NCBI GenBank assembly: GCA_021155965.1
Contig: JAJNBJ010000002.1
Span: forward strand, 260,289 to 324,288
Source: Flavipsychrobacter sp.
Lineage (GTDB): Bacteria > Bacteroidota > Bacteroidia > Chitinophagales > Chitinophagaceae
Direction of reading: 5' to 3'
Length of the DNA: 64,000 bases
Shown: one piece after another, positions 5,967-58,461 of the stretch
How the letters are laid out: each line of letters starts with the position of its first letter
How positions within the stretch are numbered: position 1 is the first letter of the stretch
Notes under the pieces: generated by a model
Told to the model about the DNA's origin: nothing
Databases searched by the model: none
The model's input: only the letters and a program-made list of their open reading frames with translations
Made by a program: the position numbers and the translations under genes

Positions 5967-6794
5967 ATGGGAACCTCTGGTCCAAGAAATTATAAATATT
6001 TAACGATTAAAAGATTGTATTCATTGTCTGGTAATCGTTGTGCATTTCCTAATTGTACTCAGACATTTTTGAATTCAGATGATGAAGATAATTTCTCAAA
6101 TATTTGTCATATAGAAGATGCCAACCTAAATACTCATAAAGCTGATGGGTACAATGCACAAATGACAAATGCCGAAAGATCCGACTATAAAAACCTCATT
6201 TTACTATGCCCTAATCATCATATTGAGACAAATGACCCAGAAAAATACCCAGCAGACGTTTTACGAAAAATGAAGCGGGATCATGAAAATAAAATGGATG
6301 CATCTAATAACGGATTAACTCTTTCAAAGAACCCCTCAATTATTAGCCAAGTTGTAAATCAAATTGGGACTACACTACTAGCCGGAAATTCTGAGGCTGA
6401 TAATAGTAATGCACCCAAAACAGAAGAGAAAATTCAATTTAACAATATCGTTAGGTATAAACCATTGATCGAGGAGTATAGCGCTTTTCAAGGTAAACTT
6501 AATAGTGTTTATGAAGAAATTGAAAAACAAGGTTCTAGTAAAAAAGATTTTCTACTGCAAAATATTAGGACATTATATTTAAAGGAGAAAGGCAAGTATT
6601 TTGACATTCATGAGATTAGAGCAAACGCAGACACAATTTTTGAAAGCATCGAAAATGAAATTTGGAAGGTACTTGAAAATAGCAATAATTTCAATAAGGA
6701 CTTACCAATTGAAGCATTAAATACATCGGTTATGGTAATTATGGTTGATGCTTTTATGAGATGTAAAATACTTGAAGAACCAACTAATAAATGA
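5967..6794 (+). CDS. HNH-nuclease-domain effector protein of an ABC-3C-like three-gene system
   Basis: 275 aa; N-terminal CAFPNC...ICHIEDANLN...NLILLCPNHHIETND (HNH/ββα-Me motif), helical C-terminal half; AT-rich; stop overlaps the next start (ATGA). Confidence 0.75.
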   Translation: MGTSGPRNYKYLTIKRLYSLSGNRCAFPNCTQTFLNSDDEDNFSNICHIEDANLNTHKADGYNAQMTNAERSDYKNLILLCPNHHIETNDPEKYPADVLRKMKRDHENKMDASNNGLTLSKNPSIISQVVNQIGTTLLAGNSEADNSNAPKTEEKIQFNNIVRYKPLIEEYSAFQGKLNSVYEEIEKQGSSKKDFLLQNIRTLYLKEKGKYFDIHEIRANADTIFESIENEIWKVLENSNNFNKDLPIEALNTSVMVIMVDAFMRCKILEEPTNK

Positions 6795-7024
6795 TAGTCG
6801 ATAAAAATGTAACGCCTGATAGAGACCTGTACTTCTTAGGAAGTATTGTAATAGAAATCCTCATTGCCCGGAAAGAAACAAAAATTGACTATTTTGAGCT
6901 ATACAATAAAATGAATCATGAACACGAAATTAGTATAAACTTATTTACCTTGGTTCTAGATTGGCTTTTCATAGTTGGGGTCATCAAAAATGCGGAAAAT
7001 GGAATGATCGAAAAATGTTTTTAA
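6791..7024 (+). CDS. Small helical middle component of ABC-3C-like system
   Basis: 77 aa; ATG overlaps the upstream stop; 10-nt overlap with the downstream ATPase start; pattern DLYFLGSIVIEIL...FTLVLDWLFIVGVI resembles ABC-three-component middle components. Confidence 0.6.
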   Translation: MIVDKNVTPDRDLYFLGSIVIEILIARKETKIDYFELYNKMNHEHEISINLFTLVLDWLFIVGVIKNAENGMIEKCF

Positions 7025-8718
7025 AAACGCTGAAAATATCGAACGGAGAAATTACCATCAATGAAATCACCTTCCACAAAGGGATTAATTTGATTGTAGA
7101 TGAAACTCCAGAAAAACCCACGCCAAAATCAACCGGAAATAATGTTGGCAAGACCACTGTATTGCGGCTTGTCGATTATTGTTTTGGTGGAGATGGGAAA
7201 AATATTTTTCAAGATACTGAATTCAAAAAACAGCCCAACACGACTGTAGAAAATTTCCTAAAGAATAATAATATAATAGTAACTATCGAATTGGTATCTA
7301 ACATTGATACTTCCGATTCCGAAAGTGTGACAATTAAAAAAAATTTCTTACAAAGAAGCAAAAAGATCCAAGAAATTAATGGTGAGAATATACTCAACGA
7401 TAAGGAATTTGATAAAAAACTTAAAGAACTAATTTTTAAAACTAACGTAGACAAGCCGACGTTCCGTCAGATAATATCCAAAAACATACGAGATGAGAAG
7501 AATAAAATGAATAACATCGTTAAGGTTTTAAATTCATATGCATCAAGTGAGGTCTATGAGGCGTTGTATTTATTTTGGCTAGGTATTGAAACTGATAACC
7601 TTGAAGAGAAACAAAAATTATCCGAAAGCAAAAAAAAAGAAGAACAGTTTCAAAAAAGGCTTAAGAAAGAAGGTGAATTGTCGCTGATACTTCAACAATT
7701 CACCTTTGTCAATGGCAAATTGGAGGAACTTAATAAAAAGAAAAAATTATTTGTAGTAAATGAAAATTATGGCGAAGAGATAGAAGAATTAAATAAAGTT
7801 AAGCTACAGCAAAATGCAAGCGCAACCTTATTAGGCAGGCTTGAAGTTAGAAGAGAATTAATTTTGGAAAGCAAATCTGATTTAGAAAAAGAATACTCTA
7901 AAATAGATGCTTCGCAAATCAAATTTTTATACAGCAAAGCGGAATCATTAATACCCAATTTGCAAGTCACTTTTGAAGACACATTGAAATTTCACAACGA
8001 CTTAATAAGCGAAAAAATAACGTATATAACAAAAGAACTCCCAGAACTGGAAAAATCAATAAATAAAACCAAGAATGAATTAAAAGCCTTACAACGTCAA
8101 GAAAAACTACTAACGATATCAATAGAAAAGTCTGGTTTTACCGACGATTTAGAATTAATAATCGTAGACCTGAATAAGTTATATGAAAAAAAGGGAAGCC
8201 TTGAGGAAAAGAAGCGACTTTGGGAGACATCATTGAACAAGTTGGCTGCAATTGAAACCGACTTACAATCTATTAACGATAACATTATTTCAAAAGACAG
8301 CATCATTCAAAGTAGAATCACTCATTTTAATAATTTTTTCTCTGAATTATCCAATGAGCTTTACGGTGAATATTATTTGTTAAGTACTCAACAAACTGAA
8401 AAAGGGTATGATTTGATAGTAACAAATATTGAAGGTAACCCAAGCACCGGCAAAAAAAAGGGGCAAATTGCAGCCTTTGATTTTGCATACATTAAATTTG
8501 CCGACTCGCTTGACATAAATTGCTTACATTTTGTAATGCACGATCAATTAGAAAATATTCATGATAATCAACTTAATACGATAATAGCAGTTGCCAATAA
8601 TATTAATGGGCAATATATCGTTCCCATATTAAGAGATAAAATTCCATCTAATATCGATATTAGTGAATTCGAAGTAATATCTCTTTCTCAAGAAAAGAAG
8701 TTATTTAAAATTCCGTAG
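7015..8718 (+). CDS. ABC/SMC-like ATPase with coiled-coil insertion (DUF2326-type)
   Basis: 567 aa from ATG 7015 (MFLKTLKISNGE..); Walker A TGNNVGKTT; about 250 aa of E/K/L-rich coiled coil; C-terminal GKKKGQIAAFDFAY and LHFVMHDQ (signature and Walker-B-like). Confidence 0.8.
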   Translation: MFLKTLKISNGEITINEITFHKGINLIVDETPEKPTPKSTGNNVGKTTVLRLVDYCFGGDGKNIFQDTEFKKQPNTTVENFLKNNNIIVTIELVSNIDTSDSESVTIKKNFLQRSKKIQEINGENILNDKEFDKKLKELIFKTNVDKPTFRQIISKNIRDEKNKMNNIVKVLNSYASSEVYEALYLFWLGIETDNLEEKQKLSESKKKEEQFQKRLKKEGELSLILQQFTFVNGKLEELNKKKKLFVVNENYGEEIEELNKVKLQQNASATLLGRLEVRRELILESKSDLEKEYSKIDASQIKFLYSKAESLIPNLQVTFEDTLKFHNDLISEKITYITKELPELEKSINKTKNELKALQRQEKLLTISIEKSGFTDDLELIIVDLNKLYEKKGSLEEKKRLWETSLNKLAAIETDLQSINDNIISKDSIIQSRITHFNNFFSELSNELYGEYYLLSTQQTEKGYDLIVTNIEGNPSTGKKKGQIAAFDFAYIKFADSLDINCLHFVMHDQLENIHDNQLNTIIAVANNINGQYIVPILRDKIPSNIDISEFEVISLSQEKKLFKIP

Positions 8719-31010: not shown

Positions 31011-31338
31011 CATATAGTTAAGCTTCTTTGGGATCAAATTCCATCGTACGGATAAAACAATAACCAATTTTCATGAAAAAAATATGTTTGTAGTTAGCTT
31101 TCAAATATAGTACTATATAAACTTGAGCCTGATGAATATTTAGTAGGGCCTCAGCATTTACACTACTGTCCTTTCTACTCGATAATTATTCTGAATGATA
31201 GCTGTTCGTTGGGTGTGTGCAGCGTCAAAAGGTAGATACGCTCTTTCTTGGGCGCTTGTTATAAGCCTATAAAATCACGCACTTATTGTTGGCTATGTAA
31301 ACATAAGTAAGGGGCCGCATCGCTGCAACCCCTTTCAA

Positions 31339-31353
31339 GTGATCCGGATTGGA
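31339..31353. repeat. 15-bp direct duplicate of the tRNA-Arg 3' end (distal att-like site)
   Basis: gtgatccggattgga is identical to 33435-33449 (last 14 nt of the tRNA plus 1 flanking nt), same orientation. Confidence 0.75.
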
Positions 31354-31504
31354 GCTTTTTATTTTACATATAACCTATAGTAATCCCGGCAAATACGCTC
31401 TGGTAAATAGTTTGAGCAAACCCCGATACGAACTATTGTAAAAGGAAGTGAGATAAAATGTAACTCAATTGCCACAAAAATGCGATGCTATTAATGTTGT
31501 CTTG

Positions 31505-31825
31505 CTAATAAGCCAATTTCTTGTTATTGAGTTCTACATTAAAATGAACTTTTGCACCCAGCGCTTCAAATACTTTAAGTATCGTTTCAAATCTGGCATT
31601 TTTGGCACTATTTTCAATTTTCGATATCTGGGCTTTCTGTACACCCACAAGCTCACCCAATTGCTCTTGAGTTAAATTACGAGCGTGCCTGGCTTCCTTA
31701 ATTGCCTGTCCAAGCAAATCAATGCGTAATTCATTTTCAAATTTCTCTCTTTTTTCGGTACCTCTTTTGCCCATGTGCTTATCAAGCATTTGGTCGAGCG
31801 ATACTGTTTTTAATTTATTAGACAT
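31505..31825 (-). CDS. XRE-family HTH antitoxin (HigA-like)
   Basis: 106 aa; ..IKEARHARNLTQEQLGELVGVQKAQISKIENSAKN.. HTH_XRE motif; 8-nt gap after the toxin gene. Confidence 0.8.
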   Translation of the reverse strand: MSNKLKTVSLDQMLDKHMGKRGTEKREKFENELRIDLLGQAIKEARHARNLTQEQLGELVGVQKAQISKIENSAKNARFETILKVFEALGAKVHFNVELNNKKLAY

Positions 31826-31833
31826 AATTGATA

Positions 31834-32175
31834 TTATTTGCTCTTCGTTTCAAAATACTGTTTCCTTATCCTTTCTGCTTTCTCAATTTCCTTAACAGGT
31901 GTTTTTTGTGTTTTCTTTACTATTCCATGTGTTGCAATGACTATTGTTGCATTTCCACGACTTTTATCCCAAAATGAAAACAGGCGATATGCAGTGTGAT
32001 TGTATAGCGTCCTGAATTCCCAGATATTATCATTCAACTTTTTGAAAAGTTCATCATCATTCACAAACTGGGCCTTCTTCAAATTATAATAGATTTTCTC
32101 TCTTGCTTTGGAGTTAAGCAACTCCATAAATTCAATTGCTTCGGAAAGAAATTCTATTTCAAAATTTTTATGCAC
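31834..32175 (-). CDS. Type II toxin, RelE/ParE superfamily (Gp49/HigB-like)
   Basis: 113 aa; ..EFLSEAIEFMELLNSKAREKIYYNLKKA...IWEFRTLYN.TAYRLFSFWDK....IVIATHGIVKKTQKTP pattern of phage Gp49-like toxins; apparent GTG start. Confidence 0.78.
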   Translation of the reverse strand: MHKNFEIEFLSEAIEFMELLNSKAREKIYYNLKKAQFVNDDELFKKLNDNIWEFRTLYNHTAYRLFSFWDKSRGNATIVIATHGIVKKTQKTPVKEIEKAERIRKQYFETKSK

Positions 32176-32201
32176 AGCAATGTTTTGACAAAGATACGAA
32201 A

Positions 32202-32217
32202 TTTCCCATTTGGGAAA
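32202..32217. promoter_or_regulatory. Perfect 16-bp palindrome in the divergent control region (candidate HigA operator)
   Basis: tttcccatttgggaaa, 27 nt upstream of the toxin start and 144 nt upstream of the DUF4365 gene. Confidence 0.4.
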
Positions 32218-32360
32218 CTATTTATTAAAAATTACCAACCGAATTTCAATGGAGTGCTGGAACACCATCTCAGGTCGATTGTACTATGAAAATCAACCTA
32301 ATTGAGCTTAAATATTAGATTTTTAACTACCATTCTATTTAACTCAAAATTCTTTTAAAA

Positions 32361-33344
32361 ATGGCCTACAACATTAGTGAGAGAGCAGGCGTACATGCCG
32401 TTGCTAAAATATTTTTTGAAAATTTCAAATGGATTTTTAGAGAACAACCAATCAATGATTTTGGTATTGACGGATATGTAGAAATGGCGAACTTAATGAA
32501 CAAGAACAATTTACGCCCTACTGGGAAAATAATTGGTGTCCAGATTAAGACAGGAAATAGTTATTTTAGAGAAAGCACTATACGCCACTTTGTATTTCGA
32601 GGTTCAAGAAGGCATCTTGAGTATTGGCTGAATCACTCGTTATCTGTAATCGTAATTTTATACAACAACGAAACAAATTGTGCGTATTGGCAAGAAATAA
32701 CCATCTCGACGGTTACCTTGACAAAAAATAATTTTAAGATCAACATACCAAGGACGAACACCCTAAGCACGAGAAGCAAAGAAGAGTTGACAAGAATCGG
32801 CCATTTTAAAAATCAATATGACTTCAAACTATGGCATTTAAGATCATCAACAGAAATAATAAATAGAATAGTACAGCAACAGTTGTTTCTGTATACGGAA
32901 ATCGAGAGTATTCCGGGTTCTAATGATTATCATATCTCCTTGGTGATAACACAGGAAGAGGATGAAAATTGCGCCAAAGTCATCTACGGTTATAATGACG
33001 ATGCTCACTATTATTCTCTTCTTTTATCGGACGATAATAACATTGCAGAAGGTATTAGCGATGTTATACCCTGGGCGGATCTCTATTACAACGACCGAAA
33101 ATTTGTTGATGAAATGCTTATTGAAACAATAGCAAATGACATCATGAGTTTTAGTGAACCGGAACTGACTGAGGAAATTTTGCAACTTAAAGAACACAAA
33201 TATTGCTTGGCAATGGCTTGTTGCTTATGTGGCAACTATTGTTTTCGATTAGAATTGAAGGCAAATAATTTCGCTCTCAATTTTTTGATGATAAATGAGT
33301 ATTTAGAAAAAGACACGGTCACTAAGCAGAGGATATTTATCTAA
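32361..33344 (+). CDS. DUF4365 (restriction-endonuclease-fold) protein with uncharacterised Cys-rich C-terminal half
   Basis: 327 aa; N-terminal ERAGVHAVAKIF....W.FREQPINDFGIDGYVE...x19...IIGVQIKTG...HLEYWL.HSLSVIVILY....CAYWQEI (DUF4365 pattern); residues about 170-327 unrecognised, ending in CLAMACCLCGNYC. Confidence 0.8.
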   Translation: MAYNISERAGVHAVAKIFFENFKWIFREQPINDFGIDGYVEMANLMNKNNLRPTGKIIGVQIKTGNSYFRESTIRHFVFRGSRRHLEYWLNHSLSVIVILYNNETNCAYWQEITISTVTLTKNNFKINIPRTNTLSTRSKEELTRIGHFKNQYDFKLWHLRSSTEIINRIVQQQLFLYTEIESIPGSNDYHISLVITQEEDENCAKVIYGYNDDAHYYSLLLSDDNNIAEGISDVIPWADLYYNDRKFVDEMLIETIANDIMSFSEPELTEEILQLKEHKYCLAMACCLCGNYCFRLELKANNFALNFLMINEYLEKDTVTKQRIFI

Positions 33345-33390
33345 TTGATAAAGCTATCTAGCGTGGAACTGCCACAAGTTCATAAAAATA

Positions 33391-33431
33391 CATTCACGCA
33401 ATTAATTGTAAATCAATTAATTGCGTGAATG
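33391..33431. terminator. Perfect 18-bp-stem hairpin between DUF4365 gene and tRNA
   Basis: cattcacgcaattaattg taaat caattaattgcgtgaatg; no clear T tract, so it could be a terminator or a recombination/att-associated structure. Confidence 0.45.
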
Positions 33432-33435
33432 TTTG

Positions 33436-33509
<74 letters not shown>

Positions 33510-55731: not shown

Positions 55732-56058
55732 CTACTTTAACTTATAAAAACGATAACGAAGGTACCTTTGTTTATTTCGTTTTAGCCAATGATAGTATGA
55801 AGTGACGAATGAAATATTCAGAATCACAAACATTATATAGTTGGATATGATTGCTTGCTCCCCAACTACCATTAATACTGTACCTATAATTAGAAGGCTT
55901 GTACCACCAACCAATAACTCTAACATGGTTTGATTCTTTATCGCTTTAGAAAACCATTTACCGATTAATGGGATACCCTTGTTGCAGCACCAAACTATTA
56001 ATGCTGCTAGCAATGTACTTATGAGTCCTTCTAAAATGTTATTAATGTTTAAACTCAT
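55732..56058 (-). CDS. Small integral membrane protein (3 predicted TM helices)
   Basis: 108 aa; hydrophobic stretches LISTLLAALIVWCC, LLVGGTSLLIIGTVLMVVG, IMFVILNISFVTSYY; basic C-terminal tail. Confidence 0.5.
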   Translation of the reverse strand: MSLNINNILEGLISTLLAALIVWCCNKGIPLIGKWFSKAIKNQTMLELLVGGTSLLIIGTVLMVVGEQAIISNYIMFVILNISFVTSYYHWLKRNKQRYLRYRFYKLK

Positions 56059-56085
56059 GGCATATAAAGTTATGCATTTTTAGAA

Positions 56086-56361
56086 CTACGGACAACTAAG
56101 ATCTATAGGATTTGCAGATGGGGAATTCAACGCAATAGTTTGTTCGTCGATTTGTGTAAACAGATATTTATACGCGCCTTTAGCTTTGGTAGAACGCAGC
56201 ATTACCTGCGTAGCCAAATCAACACCACCTTTGCGAATAGGATAAAGTCCACGTTTCTCAATAAAATTTGCTATTTCGTCAAATGTTGCAGCAAAAGTAT
56301 TTTTATTGATATTGATCAATGCTATTACAATTGCTTCGTGCAACGATAAAACGTTCTTCAT
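56086..56361 (-). CDS. Small winged-helix-like protein (Mrr_N/HARE-HTH-like)
   Basis: 91 aa; LSLHEAIVIALININKNTFAATFDEIANFIEKRGLY pattern resembles N-terminal wHTH domains of restriction-system proteins; its last 10 codons lie in a duplicated 29-bp segment. Confidence 0.5.
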   Translation of the reverse strand: MKNVLSLHEAIVIALININKNTFAATFDEIANFIEKRGLYPIRKGGVDLATQVMLRSTKAKGAYKYLFTQIDEQTIALNSPSANPIDLSCP

Positions 56362-56583: not shown

Positions 56584-58461
56584 TTAATTTAAACTGTTTA
56601 CAAGCCGAATATACTCAAATAGTTTATGTAGGTTTCCCATCAGATCTTGCAACATTTTTTGATTTGGCTTTTCCATATTCTTTGGATTGTCCTCAAAATG
56701 CGATTTATTGAACTTTTGAAAAACAAATTTCGCCAAAGCATCTTTATGCAAGATAGTACCACTAGAATCGCACACTCCAGTAACATCTTGTTTAGACAAC
56801 ATACTTCCTACGCCATATTGTTCGGAAAAAACATCCCATTTAATACTCTCTGTTACACCTTTAATTTTAGAATTGCCATGCTCCGATCTTTTCGTATAAA
56901 ATTGTTTTAGTAATTCTGGATGACAATAATTCTCGAGTTCGCGTCCTTTAAGTAACCAGAAATTTGCTACATGATGAATATTGGATTCAGTGATTTCTTC
57001 CTTAATATGACTAAACCAAGTAGCAGTTTTGTTTTGGTCATTTAATTCTCCCGCTATCCGAATGCATCTTTTGATTTTTGAATTATTATCTGAATCTACC
57101 ATTACAAAAGGGTTTGGATTAACTCTTAAGACTTTTAACGCGAAATCATCTTCTATGTCTTCTATACAGTTTGTCTGTTCATCGAATGAGATATTAGCTA
57201 TTAATCCTCCTCCAGTCATCAAAATAGAGTAATGTAACCCCTCAAGTAAATTGAATTGATAGTTGGCCTTTTCAATGTAGATTGGTAAATAGGCTTTCAT
57301 CCAAGCCCTAAGCCACATGATTTCTGAAGGTCCTTCAACCCAAATAACACAGTTGCTTAATAATGCATCACCCGGAATAACTCCTAAATCATTCGCAACT
57401 GTGCGGAGAATCTTAGCATCCGTATTGTTTCTATAAAATTTATTGATATAACATGCGTCTCCTTTCTTTTGAAAATGGTATAAGCAATCATTTTCTGTAG
57501 CTGATTCCATTACTGTCGGCGAATGTGTTGATATTACATATTGTTCGCCACCGATTTCGCGTATAATTTTTATTAATTCTCGAATAAGCCCTGGTTGTAA
57601 ATGGCTCTCAATTTCGTCAATTATTACAACCTTTTTCTTATTTCTCATTATTTCCATTAATAGAATATAAATCATTGTATATCCTGTGCCAATATCATCC
57701 GACGTTAACTTCAAATGATTTTTAAAAGTAAAACTCAATAAATTCGGTTCTGCTTTTACGGCCAATGGATCTTCTAGATTTAATCGCTGTAGATACTCAC
57801 CAATTTTTCTTTTAGCAACAGTTACTATACTAGCGTGTTTAGAATCTTCTAACCAATTAAGTATGTCTTTGCCCGTCATAGCTTTATCATTACTTAAGCC
57901 AAAGCTTCGGATTGGTGCAAATATTAAAAAGCTATTTACAATTGATTTTCGGAAAAAATCAGCCACATTATTTAAGCCACTTTCAATTGCATTGATTTTA
58001 GTTAAAAAATCTTTAGTGTACGAGAATTTACCACCCTTATATTTATACGGCTCAATATTATCCAATGTGACAAAGCAATTGCACTGGACAGAGCCACCTG
58101 GATTTTTGTAAAACAAATACACTAATTGGCATTTCCTGATACTGTCTTTAATAGAATTATAAATTTGATCTAATTGTGTATAAATTGAATCGGTATGTTT
58201 CTTGGTAAACGTTAGTGTAATTTTGAATGGGATATCAATTGAAAGATTATGGAAATCGTAGTCATTCAAATCATCACCGAAACCAAATTTAATATTGTCA
58301 ATTCTGTTTACTAACGATAACGCCTTTGCAATTAAAGATTTGCCCGAATTATTTTGCCCGACTAAAAATGTGATACTGTTATTGTCAGCTAAATCAAAAA
58401 ATTGCTCTTCTTTAAACCCTCTATAATTTGCAATTGAAATTGACTCAACAACCTTTTCCAT
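56584..58461 (-). CDS. OLD-family-like ATPase-Toprim nuclease (fused ABC-type ATPase + Toprim/DUF4435-like)
   Basis: 625 aa; ISIANYRGF, Walker A GQNNSGKS, Walker B VVIIDEIESHLQP, ISTHSP; C-terminal VIWVEGPSE (Toprim Glu) and FVMVDSDNN (DxD). Confidence 0.8.
   Translation of the reverse strand: MEKVVESISIANYRGFKEEQFFDLADNNSITFLVGQNNSGKSLIAKALSLVNRIDNIKFGFGDDLNDYDFHNLSIDIPFKITLTFTKKHTDSIYTQLDQIYNSIKDSIRKCQLVYLFYKNPGGSVQCNCFVTLDNIEPYKYKGGKFSYTKDFLTKINAIESGLNNVADFFRKSIVNSFLIFAPIRSFGLSNDKAMTGKDILNWLEDSKHASIVTVAKRKIGEYLQRLNLEDPLAVKAEPNLLSFTFKNHLKLTSDDIGTGYTMIYILLMEIMRNKKKVVIIDEIESHLQPGLIRELIKIIREIGGEQYVISTHSPTVMESATENDCLYHFQKKGDACYINKFYRNNTDAKILRTVANDLGVIPGDALLSNCVIWVEGPSEIMWLRAWMKAYLPIYIEKANYQFNLLEGLHYSILMTGGGLIANISFDEQTNCIEDIEDDFALKVLRVNPNPFVMVDSDNNSKIKRCIRIAGELNDQNKTATWFSHIKEEITESNIHHVANFWLLKGRELENYCHPELLKQFYTKRSEHGNSKIKGVTESIKWDVFSEQYGVGSMLSKQDVTGVCDSSGTILHKDALAKFVFQKFNKSHFEDNPKNMEKPNQKMLQDLMGNLHKLFEYIRLVNSLN

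What the first reader, a model, noticed from the sequence alone, without database searches (positions are those of the whole stretch)
31505..33344. Candidate undescribed defence module: DUF4365 nuclease-fold protein with unknown Cys-rich C-terminal half, divergent from a HigB/HigA-like pair
Seen: ORF 32361-33344 has a DUF4365-type N-terminal core of about 150 aa (NDFGIDGYVE, then IIGVQIKTG, then SLSVIVILY..CAYWQEI). This is a PD-(D/E)xK-like arrangement with candidate residues D33/D37 and Q61-x-K63. Residues about 170-327 match nothing I recognise and end in the cluster CLAMACCLCGNYC. The gene is transcribed divergently from a Gp49/HigB-type toxin and an XRE antitoxin. The 185-bp control region between them contains a perfect 16-bp palindrome (32202-32217). 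All three genes sit on a tRNA-anchored AT-rich islet. Inference: a nuclease plus a TA pair on a tRNA islet is classic defence-island context, and I know of no characterised system with this composition. The TA pair may instead be only an addiction module for the islet.
Basis: partly seen in the sequence, partly recalled or inferred. Interest (0 to 1): 0.8.

Follow-up and report, generated by a model that had tools for sequence, protein, structure and literature searches.

The report
Argonaute-free DREN nuclease on tRNA islet
A 2.1-kb AT-rich islet inserted at a tRNA-Arg gene carries an ordinary HigBA-type toxin-antitoxin pair and, as a separate gene, a nuclease of the kind used by Argonaute (SPARDA) immune systems, here fused to an acidic domain of unknown fold instead of the Argonaute-binding part; this protein belongs to a widespread, uncharacterised single-gene family that is probably a defence nuclease.

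Summary
The ORFs, the tRNA and the islet are real. Two details are wrong. The "perfect 16-bp palindrome" is a 7+2+7 inverted repeat. The Cys cluster is not conserved in homologues.

The N-terminal half of the 327-aa protein is a DREN/DUF4365 PD-(D/E)xK nuclease. This is the effector domain of SPARDA short-Argonaute systems. All catalytic residues are invariant (D33, D37, E41, Q61, K63).

The C-terminal half (aa 148-327) folds confidently (pLDDT 90). It matches nothing in PDB, BFVD, Pfam or PADLOC. It is uniformly acidic across the family. It occurs only behind a DUF4365-sized N-domain (354 clusters at 50% identity).

There is no Argonaute and no APAZ domain. No neighbouring gene is conserved across 62 distinct loci. 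A HigB-like toxin lies nearby in only 2 of about 66 loci, and those two members are not sisters. The "nuclease + TA system" reading is therefore not supported. The TA pair is an independent module.

Immediate neighbours of family members match more PADLOC defence models than genes more than 5 kb away. Several members sit in small islets at tRNA genes with no integrase.

Best reading: a stand-alone, autoinhibited DREN nuclease acting as a single-gene defence or abortive-infection module. I could not test whether it is related to the DUF4365 system Divona.

Verdict: partly supported; new variant of a known kind; moderate interest.

The parts
31309..31334 (-). GC-rich hairpin (AAGGGGTTGCAGCGATGCGGCCCCTT) just outside the left repeat. 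Probably the ancestral terminator of tRNA-Arg, displaced by the insertion.
   Evidence: Terminator-like site with 11 pairs. Its position directly next to the left direct repeat is read from the sequence. The ancestral role is an inference.
31339..31353 (+). Left direct repeat (attL-like). An exact 15-nt copy of the 3' end of tRNA-Arg.
   Evidence: There are 2 copies in 64 kb against 0.01 expected.
31505..31825 (-). XRE-family HTH antitoxin (HigA-like), 106 aa.
   Evidence: HTH_3 E 6e-12. Y4mF/HipB-type antitoxin models give 56 bits, below the cut-off. The gene starts 8 bp downstream of the toxin gene.
31834..32175 (-). Gp49/HigB-like (RelE-superfamily) toxin, 113 aa, GTG start.
   Evidence: PF05973 E 3e-16 over 89 of 90 profile positions. 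It is 50% identical to the HigB-like gene of L003.
32189..32196 (-). Bacteroidota-type -7 promoter box TATCTTTG, 14-21 nt upstream of the higB start codon.
   Evidence: It is the only exact TAnnTTTG in the intergenic region. Promoter function is inferred.
32202..32217 (.). Inverted repeat TTTCCCA-TT-TGGGAAA (7+2+7). It abuts the -7 box of the TA promoter and is a candidate HigA operator.
   Evidence: It is not significant by itself. The operator role is inferred from its position.
32361..33344 (+). DREN-CTD protein, 327 aa. The DREN/DUF4365 PD-(D/E)xK nuclease domain is aa 7-145 (nt 32379-32795). The acidic orphan-fold C-terminal domain is aa 148-327 (nt 32802-33341).
   Evidence: Pfam. PDB sequence match to DREN-APAZ 9jsb, E 9e-18. 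Foldseek match to SPARDA chains, E 1e-10. CTD model with pLDDT 89.6 and no structural match. Family alignment.
33390..33432 (.). Perfect 19-bp stem with a 5-nt loop, between the nuclease gene's stop codon and the tRNA 3' end. Likely a bidirectional terminator brought in by the islet.
   Evidence: (repeat I2, 100% complementary).
33435..33509 (-). tRNA-Arg(TCT). Its 3'-terminal 15 nt (33435-33449) form the right direct repeat.
   Evidence: ARAGORN. Rfam tRNA, 72 bits. Repeat.

Best explanation
The 2.1-kb segment 31354-33434 is a horizontally acquired, integrase-less islet. It was inserted at the 3' end of tRNA-Arg(TCT). It carries two independent modules.

Module 1 is a type II HigBA-like toxin-antitoxin pair. 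The toxin gene comes first. The pair is probably autorepressed through the 7+2+7 inverted repeat at its own promoter. It most likely stabilises the islet.

Module 2 is a stand-alone DREN-CTD protein. Its N-terminal domain is the same Mg2+-dependent PD-(D/E)xK DNase that serves as the effector of SPARDA. In SPARDA this domain is inactive as a monomer and cuts DNA non-specifically only after it assembles into a tetramer.

Here the APAZ/Argonaute sensor is replaced by a family-specific acidic alpha/beta domain. I propose that this CTD keeps the nuclease autoinhibited. It could do so by masking the DNA-binding face or by blocking tetramerisation. On a phage- or plasmid-derived cue it would release or assemble the nuclease. 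The outcome would be degradation of invader and/or host DNA, that is, a single-gene defence or abortive-infection module.

Shown: the domain identities, the intact active site, the absence of Ago/APAZ, the absence of a conserved partner gene, the islet anatomy, and the acidic orphan CTD.
Inferred: the defence role, autoinhibition by the CTD, oligomerisation-dependent activation, and the operator function of the repeat.
For: Nuclease domain:
- PF14280 E 4e-33.
- A family profile matches DREN-APAZ structures 9jsb, 9qbq and 9qbp at E 9e-18 to 4e-13.
- The AF2 model (pLDDT 86.7) matches SPARDA DREN chains at E 1e-10 and I-Ssp6803I at 2e-3.
- D33, D37, E41, Q61 and K63 are invariant in 38 homologues. 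From the alignment, allowing for a numbering offset in the deposited Xau chain, I infer that they correspond to the mutationally validated residues Nba D41/Q60/K62 (bioRxiv 10.1101/2023.06.08.544223) and Xau E37/D41.
- An isolated DREN domain is monomeric and inactive. Tetramerisation activates it (PMC12205087; bioRxiv 10.1101/2025.04.08.647717).

CTD:
- Confident model, pLDDT 89.6 and pTM 0.83.
- The same CTD is present in 79 of 92 sequence hits and in 64 of 85 loci.
- 354 clusters at 50% identity reach E<=1e-3. In full-length hits the CTD starts at about residue 143-180, that is, directly after a DUF4365-sized N-domain.
- Mean net charge is -13.4 and mean pI is 4.6 in 78 members.

Stand-alone status:
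- All-against-all clustering of neighbours in 62 loci finds no partner present in more than 4 loci.

Defence and mobile context:
- 116 immediate neighbours hit 121 PADLOC models at E<=1e-10. These include SduA, PDC-S05/S20/S23, a type IIG R-M enzyme and PDC-M30A. 93 genes more than 5 kb away hit only 19 models.
- Neighbour Pfam families include HipA, KAP NTPase, HEPN, Eco57I and N6_Mtase.
- The V. fluvialis member lies in a serine-recombinase islet next to an HNH protein.
- P0006 lies next to SymE and TIR-like genes.
- The gene sits directly beside a tRNA in the window, L002, L008, L009 and L080. Islets flanked by direct repeats and lacking an obvious integrase occur in the window, L002 and L049.

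Functional precedent:
- Divona, a single-gene DUF4365 protein, is anti-phage.
- The DUF4365 protein EAT16 is toxic, and its toxicity depends on the DxGxD...QxK motif.

TA module:
- for the domains, for the repeat and the -7 box.
Against: - No experiment or structure exists for any member of this CTD family. The defence role rests on context and analogy.
- The near-versus-far PADLOC comparison is crude. It counts redundant models, not proteins, and gene calls came from my own ORF picker.
- Many neighbours are housekeeping genes. P0007 lies between an acetyl-CoA synthetase and a YkuD gene, and P0002 lies next to DsbA and AhpC genes.
- Nothing shows that the CTD contacts the nuclease domain. The full-length pTM is only 0.57, so the relative placement of the two domains is uncertain.
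- The family is rare in phage and viral collections. This is neutral for a defence role, but it does not support a mobile origin.
- No integrase, excision product or empty site was found for the islet.
Confidence: 0.55

Rival explanations
1. One reading: the nuclease and the HigBA pair form one integrated three-gene defence system. For example, the XRE protein could co-regulate the nuclease through the shared control region, or the toxin could act as a second effector.
For: - A second genome (L003-L005, the P0009 locus) carries homologues of all three genes within 2.7 kb.
- The three proteins diverge to a similar degree: HigB 50%, HigA 56%, nuclease 50% identity.
- In the window the genes are divergent and share a 185-bp intergenic region that contains an inverted repeat.
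Against: - A HigB-like gene is found near only 2 of about 66 family loci, even with jackhmmer.
- The two TA-linked members are not sisters in the family tree.
- The window protein's closest relative has no TA.
- In L003 the arrangement differs. The genes are on the same strand, and an unrelated 153-aa ORF lies between them.
- The inverted repeat abuts the TA -7 box. It lies about 100 bp from the best -7-like box of the nuclease gene.
- Gp49/XRE pairs are very common on Bacteroidota mobile DNA (general knowledge).
Confidence: 0.1
2. The DREN-CTD protein is the mobility enzyme of the islet. It would be a homing-type or site-specific nuclease that targets tRNA genes and so spreads its own gene. 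It would not be an immune effector.
For: - DREN is structurally and quaternarily similar to I-Ssp6803I, a homing endonuclease of a tRNA intron.
- The family gene lies within about 200 bp of a tRNA gene in 4 loci (L002, L008, L009, L080) plus the window.
- In the window, L002, L008 and L080 it is the gene next to the tRNA 3' end. That is the position usually held by an integrase (coordinates).
- Three islets flanked by direct repeats (window, L002, L049) contain no obvious integrase.
Against: - About 90% of family loci have no tRNA nearby.
- Direct repeats of a tRNA 3' end are the signature of tyrosine-recombinase integration, not of homing.
- Characterised DREN domains cut without sequence specificity.
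- The acidic CTD is an unlikely DNA-recognition domain.
- L008, L009 and L080 have no flanking repeats.
Confidence: 0.07
3. The protein is a constitutively active nuclease directed at non-self DNA. It would resemble a type IV, modification-dependent restriction enzyme, with the CTD acting as the reader. Alternatively it is a toxin effector delivered to other cells, like EAT16.
For: - The architecture (N-terminal PD-(D/E)xK nuclease of about 145 aa plus a C-terminal domain of about 170 aa, about 300 aa in all) resembles PvuRts1I/AbaSI-type enzymes (from memory; a lead only).
- EAT16 is a DUF4365 protein with a second domain. It is toxic when expressed.
- No immunity gene is conserved next to the family. 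That fits an enzyme that ignores unmodified self DNA.
Against: - The CTD model has no match to SRA, YTH, EVE or any other reader fold in the PDB. The best hit has E 0.2 and TM below 0.25.
- The CTD is strongly acidic in every member.
- No signal peptide, eCIS or secretion genes lie nearby.
- Very few polar residues are conserved in the CTD. Only P237, W238, A239, N302 and F308 are conserved across the family.
Confidence: 0.12
4. The islet is a decaying remnant of a larger integrative element, and the genes have no current function.
For: There is no integrase. The repeats are short (15 nt). The element holds only three genes.
Against: - All three ORFs are intact and full-length relative to their homologues.
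- The catalytic residues are intact.
- The same arrangement recurs in a second sample (L089).
- The family is conserved across phyla at full length.
Confidence: 0.05

Closest known systems
DREN-APAZ effector of SPARDA (short prokaryotic Argonaute, DNase/RNase-associated; PDB 9jsb, 9jt2, 9qbq, 9qcc, 9vx6)
   Same: The N-terminal nuclease domain is the same: DUF4365/DREN with an Hjc/I-Ssp6803I-like PD-(D/E)xK fold. The catalytic constellation is the same (D/E-x-G-x-D...E...Q-x-K). It is joined to the second domain in a comparable way. The PADLOC model for this protein (Aga_REase-PNTD1-PNTD2, which I take to be the DREN-APAZ effector) matches aa 8-146 at 3e-23.
   Different: There is no APAZ domain. 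The CTD-only model does not match any SPARDA chain, and the PADLOC alignment stops at model position 142 of 429. No Argonaute gene lies next to it or next to any of 62 family loci. The protein is shorter (327 aa against about 440-470). The motif W-I-F-R-E-Q-P in strand beta1 is invariant here and absent from SPARDA DRENs.
Divona (Vibrio cholerae chromosomal-integron cassette, probably VC_A0374; bioRxiv 10.1101/2024.07.02.601686)
   Same: It is a single-gene module with an N-terminal DUF4365 nuclease domain fused to a second domain. It has experimentally shown anti-phage activity. It is found on mobile DNA in other species.
   Different: Divona's second domain is described as crr6-like (PF08847). 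No member of the present family hits PF08847, even at E<=1. No V. cholerae protein appeared among the best 120 hits of two family searches. The Divona sequence could not be obtained here, so I could not test whether the two CTDs are the same.
EAT16, an eCIS-associated toxin of Photorhabdus (PMC11297309)
   Same: It is a two-domain protein with an N-terminal DUF4365. Its toxicity depends on the DxGxD...QxK residues, which correspond to D33, D37, Q61 and K63 here.
   Different: EAT16 is cargo of a contractile injection system. No such genes lie here.
Shedu (SduA, DUF4263) and similar single-protein PD-(D/E)xK defence nucleases
   Same: The logic is the same. A non-specific PD-(D/E)xK nuclease is held in check by an appended regulatory or sensor domain. 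It is encoded as a single gene in variable islands and works as an oligomer (general knowledge of the family).
   Different: It is a different nuclease family (DUF4263, not DUF4365). The domain order is reversed, with the sensor at the N-terminus in Shedu. The window protein has no PADLOC SduA match.
HigBA / Gp49-XRE type II toxin-antitoxin modules
   Same: The toxin is a PF05973 protein and its gene comes first. An XRE-HTH antitoxin follows 8 bp downstream. An inverted repeat lies at the promoter. The pair sits on a small mobile insert.
   Different: Nothing unusual was seen. It is an ordinary member by sequence. Activity was not tested.

Membership tests
DUF4365 / DREN nuclease domain (PF14280) | Match to the PF14280 profile above Pfam's gathering score | tested here: met
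   114.8 bits against a cut-off of 24.3. The match covers aa 7-145 and profile positions 1-137 of 139.
DUF4365 / DREN nuclease domain (PF14280) | Catalytic motif D/E-x-G-x-D ... Q-x-K, the residues validated by mutation in NbaDREN, XauDREN and EAT16 | tested here: met
   D33, G35, D37, E41, Q61, I62 and K63 are invariant in 38 homologues. The alignment to 9jsb and 9qbq puts them on GID..E and VQIK. Literature.
DUF4365 / DREN nuclease domain (PF14280) | Hjc/I-Ssp6803I-like PD-(D/E)xK fold | tested here: met
   Foldseek with the AF2 model (pLDDT 86.7) matches SPARDA DREN chains at E 9e-11 to 4e-6 and I-Ssp6803I (2ost) at E 2e-3.
DUF4365 / DREN nuclease domain (PF14280) | Metal-dependent DNase activity that requires oligomerisation | not testable with these tools
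   This needs purified protein.
SPARDA (short pAgo + DREN-APAZ) | APAZ (N-L1-L2-like) domain C-terminal to DREN | tested here: not met
   The CTD-only model (pLDDT 89.6) gives no SPARDA or Argonaute hit. The best PDB hit has E 0.2. The PADLOC DREN-APAZ model aligns only over positions 13-142 of 429. The CTD profile has no PDB sequence match.
SPARDA (short pAgo + DREN-APAZ) | Adjacent short Argonaute (MID-PIWI) gene | tested here: not met
   The neighbours in the window are higBA and a tRNA. No neighbour is conserved across 62 family loci. No Piwi family is among the 25 most frequent of the 96 Pfam families hit by the immediate neighbours, and only those 25 were listed.
Type II toxin-antitoxin, HigBA/Gp49-XRE type | RelE-superfamily Gp49/HigB toxin domain | tested here: met
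   PF05973 E 2.9e-16, 59.7 bits against a cut-off of 23.9.
Type II toxin-antitoxin, HigBA/Gp49-XRE type | Small HTH antitoxin gene immediately downstream in the same operon (toxin first) | tested here: met
   HTH_3 E 6e-12. The gap between the two genes is 8 bp and they are on the same strand.
Type II toxin-antitoxin, HigBA/Gp49-XRE type | Autoregulatory operator (inverted repeat) in the promoter | tested here: inconclusive
   A 7+2+7 inverted repeat lies directly upstream of a Bacteroidota -7 box. A repeat of this size is not beyond chance, and binding was not tested.
Type II toxin-antitoxin, HigBA/Gp49-XRE type | Toxicity neutralised by the antitoxin | not testable with these tools
   This needs expression assays.
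Divona (single-gene DUF4365 anti-phage system) | N-terminal DUF4365 in a single-gene module | tested here: met
   for the domain. for the absence of a conserved partner gene.
Divona (single-gene DUF4365 anti-phage system) | crr6-like (PF08847) C-terminal domain, or homology to VC_A0374 over the CTD | tested here: inconclusive
   No PF08847 hit at E<=1 in 27 CTDs or in 10 further DUF4365 proteins.
tRNA-integrated genomic islet | Insertion at the 3' end of a tRNA gene with a direct repeat of that end at the far boundary | tested here: met
   The 15-nt exact repeat lies at 31339-31353 and 33435-33449, with 0.01 expected by chance.
tRNA-integrated genomic islet | Composition different from the flanks | tested here: met
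   GC is 0.31-0.38 inside, against 0.44-0.50 outside.
tRNA-integrated genomic islet | Integrase or recombinase gene inside the element | tested here: not met
   The three genes fill the 2.1 kb and none is a recombinase.
tRNA-integrated genomic islet | Empty site in a related genome | tested here: inconclusive
   Two metagenome scans found nothing. The second pattern, an exact 23-nt stretch of the window itself, also returned nothing, so the window's own contig does not seem to be in that collection. Exact-protein look-up of the HU gene found only occupied sites.

The most novel reading that the evidence does not exclude
DREN-CTD proteins are a distinct class of single-polypeptide immune nucleases. 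An acidic domain of a so-far unseen fold replaces the whole Argonaute/APAZ guide-sensing apparatus. It gates assembly of the DREN tetramer in response to a phage cue. If so, the SPARDA effector would have an Argonaute-independent life of its own, or SPARDA would have recruited its effector from such stand-alone nucleases.
Probability: 0.35. Interest if true: 0.65.

Novelty: new variant of a known kind. Interest (0 to 1): 0.45.

Why it matters
DREN is so far understood only as the Argonaute-controlled effector of SPARDA. It is also used in diagnostics because of its collateral cleavage.

This locus belongs to a family of at least 350 clusters at 50% identity (at least 800 at 90%), spread over many phyla. 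In this family the same nuclease is coupled to a dedicated, uncharacterised acidic domain and works without a conserved partner.

If the CTD is a trigger-sensing switch, it would show a second and much simpler way to control a tetramerisation-dependent collateral nuclease. It would also add a compact single-gene system of about 1 kb to the defence repertoire. The CTD is a confidently predicted domain with no structural relative in the PDB or BFVD.

The rest of the finding is ordinary. The TA pair is a standard HigBA-type module, and the proposed three-gene system does not hold up.

Tried and rejected
1. Cys cluster as a metal site. Rejected. The cysteines are not conserved.

2. CTD as APAZ or an Argonaute N-domain. 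Rejected. Some full-length Foldseek alignments ran on for about 290 columns, but at rmsd 23-32 A. The CTD alone hits no SPARDA chain.

3. CTD as a known domain. No match in Pfam (27 CTDs, E<=1), PDB sequences, PDB folds, BFVD viral folds (best E 0.02, TM 0.31), NCBIfam or PADLOC.

4. Conserved partner gene. All-against-all BLAST of 455 ORFs within 3.5 kb of the gene in 62 loci found none present in more than 4 loci. One divergent subgroup (L029, L030, L034) does have a conserved upstream PDC-M30A-like gene.

5. HigB co-occurrence. phmmer and jackhmmer over all ORFs of 91 loci found HigB-like genes only in the window's own contigs and in L003-L005.

6. Empty-site search. Two exact-pattern scans of metagenome contigs found nothing. 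Exact look-up of the HU protein found only the same occupied arrangement.

7. Retrieving Divona (VC_A0374). It is absent from the paper's supplement. Other papers give no sequence. The best-120 lists contain no V. cholerae protein. The cluster look-up gave no names. blastn of a Vibrio family gene against E. coli genomes gave no match.

8. Phage origin. Only 2 phage records and 9 IMG/VR loci hold a relative.

9. The sigma-70 promoter scan is uninformative. It found 9 sites against 9.4 expected, and Bacteroidota use other promoter boxes.

10. Flanking repeats around the tRNA-adjacent members L008, L009 and L080. None was found.


Full report
**What is there.**
The three ORFs are as described:
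- higA-like, 31505-31825(-), 106 aa. HTH_3 E 6e-12.
- higB-like, 31834-32175(-), 113 aa. PF05973 Gp49 E 3e-16.
- A 327-aa ORF, 32361-33344(+). PF14280/DUF4365 covers aa 7-145 at E 4e-33.

tRNA-Arg(TCT) lies at 33435-33509(-). Its last 15 nt, GTGATCCGGATTGGA, recur exactly at 31339-31353. That makes 2 copies in 64 kb against 0.01 expected. GC is 0.31-0.38 between the repeats. The window average is about 0.44, and the region just to the left is about 0.50.

Directly outside the left repeat is a GC-rich hairpin (31309-31334). Directly inside the right repeat is a perfect 19-bp hairpin (33390-33432). The simplest reading is this. A 2.08-kb insert (31354-33434) entered the 3' end of the tRNA gene, separated the tRNA from its old terminator, and brought a new one. 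This reading is an inference.

No recombinase lies inside the insert. The flanks are housekeeping genes: HU, a T9SS adhesin and an Fe-S oxidoreductase. The window is part of a 455-kb JGI metagenome contig from a Bacteroidota organism. The same arrangement is seen in a second sample.

**Two corrections to the observation.**
First, the "perfect 16-bp palindrome" is TTTCCCA-TT-TGGGAAA, a 7+2+7 repeat. It is not remarkable by chance alone. It does abut the only exact Bacteroidota -7 box (TATCTTTG, minus strand, 32196-32189), which lies 14-21 nt upstream of the higB start. That is where a TA autorepressor would bind.

Second, the Cys cluster CLAMACCLCGNYC is real in this sequence but is not conserved. 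Close homologues keep only an A-C pair, and distant ones have no Cys there.

**The nuclease domain.**
A profile of 38 homologues matches the DREN-APAZ proteins of three solved SPARDA complexes (9jsb E 9e-18, 9qbq 9e-17, 9qbp 4e-13). The match covers residues 10-112 only. The AF2 model (pLDDT 86.7) matches SPARDA DREN chains at E about 1e-10. The next match is the homing endonuclease I-Ssp6803I at 2e-3. PADLOC's model for this effector (Aga_REase-PNTD1-PNTD2, which I take to be DREN-APAZ) matches aa 8-146 at 3e-23.

D33, G35, D37, E41, Q61, I62 and K63 are invariant in the family. From the alignment, allowing for a numbering offset in the deposited Xau chain, I infer that they correspond to the residues whose mutation kills NbaSPARDA (D41/Q60/K62) and XauSPARDA (E37, D41). 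They also correspond to the residues needed for toxicity of the DUF4365 toxin EAT16 (DxGxD...QxK).

The SPARDA papers establish three points. DREN is a non-specific Mg/Mn-dependent nuclease. It is monomeric and inactive on its own. It is switched on when filament formation forces four DREN domains into an I-Ssp6803I-like tetramer.

**The C-terminal domain.**
Modelled alone with 27 homologues, residues 148-327 give a confident alpha/beta domain (pLDDT 89.6, pTM 0.83). It has no significant match anywhere:
- PDB folds: best E 0.2, TM below 0.25, and no SPARDA or Argonaute chain.
- BFVD viral folds: best E 0.02.
- Pfam, PDB sequences, NCBIfam and PADLOC: none.

So it is not APAZ. A profile of the domain finds it in 79 of the 92 first-round homologues and in 64 of 85 fetched loci. 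This includes many hits that pairwise BLAST had aligned over the N-terminal domain only.

Against 1.84 billion cluster representatives it finds 354 proteins at E<=1e-3 and 210 at E<=1e-10. In every full-length hit it starts at about residue 143-180, directly after a DUF4365-sized N-domain. A few proteins carry a further C-terminal extension. A profile of the proteobacterial branch retrieves at least 802 clusters at 90% identity.

Members occur in Bacteroidota, Proteobacteria, Acidobacteriota, Firmicutes, Desulfobacterota, Omnitrophota, Verrucomicrobiota and one Asgard MAG. The CTD is acidic in all 78 members examined: mean net charge -13.4, mean pI 4.6, maximum pI 6.0. Few residues are conserved across the whole family (L160, P237-W238-A239, N302, F308). 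These look structural rather than catalytic.

**Is the TA pair part of the system?**
No conserved neighbour exists. Clustering 455 ORFs within 3.5 kb of the gene in 62 distinct loci gives no family present in more than four loci.

HigB-like genes were sought with phmmer and then jackhmmer over all ORFs of 91 loci. They appear only in the window's own contigs and in one other organism, L003-L005. There the pair lies on the same strand as the nuclease gene. An unrelated 153-aa membrane ORF lies between them, and the whole lies downstream of an rRNA operon.

The window protein and the L003 protein are not sisters in an NJ tree. The window's nearest relative, P0002 (53% identity), has no TA. Neither does Flavisolibacter P0007, Pedobacter P0020 or P0006.

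The recurrence of a 50-56% identical HigBA pair next to two non-sister members is a mild oddity that I cannot fully explain. Modular shuffling among small islets is the likeliest cause. It does not make the pair an obligate partner.

**Context of the family.**
Immediate neighbours (116 proteins) hit 121 PADLOC models at E<=1e-10. These include Shedu SduA, PDC-S05/S06/S20/S23, a type IIG R-M enzyme, PDC-M30A and others. By contrast, 93 genes more than 5 kb away in the same loci hit 19 models, most of them type III methyltransferase models that each matched one protein.

Neighbour Pfam families include N6_Mtase, Eco57I, HipA_C, KAP NTPase, HEPN_LA2681, AAA_13, RadC and an integrase. Plain housekeeping enzymes are also present. 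This comparison is crude because it counts redundant models and relies on home-made gene calls.

The V. fluvialis member lies in a serine-recombinase islet with an HNH protein. P0006 lies beside SymE and TIR-like genes.

The gene is directly next to a tRNA in the window and in L002, L008, L009 and L080. Small islets bounded by repeats of a tRNA 3' end, and without an obvious integrase, hold it in the window (15 nt, tRNA-Arg), in Pedobacter steynii (17 nt, tRNA-Ser, together with a Fic/RhuM gene) and in Burkholderia lata (45 nt, tRNA-Val).

The family is rare in phage genomes (2 records) and in IMG/VR contigs (9 loci).

**How it most likely works.**
Shown: an intact DREN nuclease; no APAZ and no Argonaute; a dedicated acidic CTD; no partner gene; a variable context rich in defence and mobile genes.

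Established for the domain: the DREN monomer is inactive, tetramerisation activates it, and cleavage is non-specific.

Inferred: the CTD replaces the Argonaute/APAZ sensor. It either holds the nuclease off (an acidic domain covering the basic DNA-binding face, much as the acidic C-tail does in apo XauSPARDA) or mediates trigger-dependent assembly. Activation degrades DNA and aborts infection.

A non-specific nuclease kept in genomes with no linked immunity gene argues for autoinhibition. I put this explanation at 0.55.

Rivals:
- An integrated nuclease + TA system: 0.10.
- A modification-dependent restriction enzyme or a delivered toxin: 0.12. No reader fold is found and the CTD is acidic.
- A tRNA-targeting mobility nuclease of the islet: 0.07. 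This is attractive because of the kinship with I-Ssp6803I and because the gene occupies the integrase-like position next to the tRNA. However, about 90% of loci have no tRNA nearby.
- A dead remnant: 0.05.

**Comparison with what is known, and novelty.**
The protein works like a DREN effector but is not a SPARDA member. Both defining features beyond the nuclease domain were tested and not met.

The closest functional precedent is Divona. This single-gene DUF4365 protein from the V. cholerae chromosomal integron gives phage resistance. Its second domain is described as crr6-like (PF08847). No protein of the present family hits PF08847. I could not obtain the Divona sequence, so membership stays open.

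PADLOC (2023) has no full-length model for the family. No paper in the library describes a stand-alone DREN protein with this CTD.

I therefore rate the finding as a new variant of a known kind. The nuclease is known, the regulatory domain is uncharacterised and of unseen fold, and there is no Argonaute. The HigBA pair and the tRNA islet are ordinary.

Interest is moderate (0.45). It would be higher if the CTD proves to be a new sensor. It would be lower if the family turns out to be Divona.

Noticed in passing
window 5967-8718: A second AT-rich patch (GC 0.32) holds a two-gene candidate defence system. The first gene is a 275-aa HNH-type protein matching PADLOC PDC-M68A (8e-26). The second is a 585-aa SMC/LmuB-like ATPase matching PDC-M68B (3e-42).
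   Followed up: partly
window 56584-58461 (with small ORFs 55732-56361): A third AT-rich patch (GC 0.35) encodes a 625-aa OLD/GajA-like AAA ATPase (GajA 3e-20, AbiLi 9e-19, Old 6e-15). Two small unannotated ORFs lie downstream. No Toprim or GajB partner was looked for.
   Followed up: partly
L003 5876-8993 (also L004, L005): In another Bacteroidota metagenome genome, the same three gene types lie on one strand immediately after the 5S rRNA of an rRNA operon. The HigB, HigA and DREN-CTD genes are each about 50-56% identical to the window's. A 153-aa membrane-anchored ORF of unknown function lies between the TA pair and the nuclease gene. It is unexplained why two non-sister family members have related HigBA pairs nearby.
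   Followed up: partly
L002 6444-9258 (Pedobacter steynii) and L049 7145-10798 (Burkholderia lata): Two more mini-islets carry a family member and are bounded by repeats of a tRNA 3' end. One has a 17-nt repeat at tRNA-Ser. The other has a 45-nt repeat at tRNA-Val. No integrase is evident inside either. The Pedobacter islet also carries a Fic/RhuM gene. How such integrase-less islets move is open.
   Followed up: partly
L029 6705-8852, L030 6917-8852, L034 6700-8849: A divergent proteobacterial/acidobacterial subgroup matches the CTD profile only weakly (E 1e-5 to 1e-7). It has a conserved gene of about 400 aa immediately upstream that matches the PADLOC candidate PDC-M30A (6e-56). This may be a two-gene variant of the family.
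   Followed up: partly
proteins P0236, P0256, P0278 (559-566 aa) and P0304, P0333 (441-455 aa): Some family members carry an extra helical C-terminal extension of 120-230 aa after the CTD. Other DUF4365 proteins (P0038, P0063, P0072, P0086-P0092) have entirely different second domains. DREN is therefore a module combined with several uncharacterised partners.
   Followed up: no
window 32436-32450 (aa 26-30 of the nuclease): The motif W-I-F-R-E-Q-P in strand beta1, just before the catalytic D33, is invariant in this family (F26, R27, E28, Q29). SPARDA DRENs lack it and have GWQFDGR or GFLYEQR there. It lies where NbaDREN has its beta1-beta2 tetramer-interface residues. It may be a family-specific interface.
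   Followed up: no
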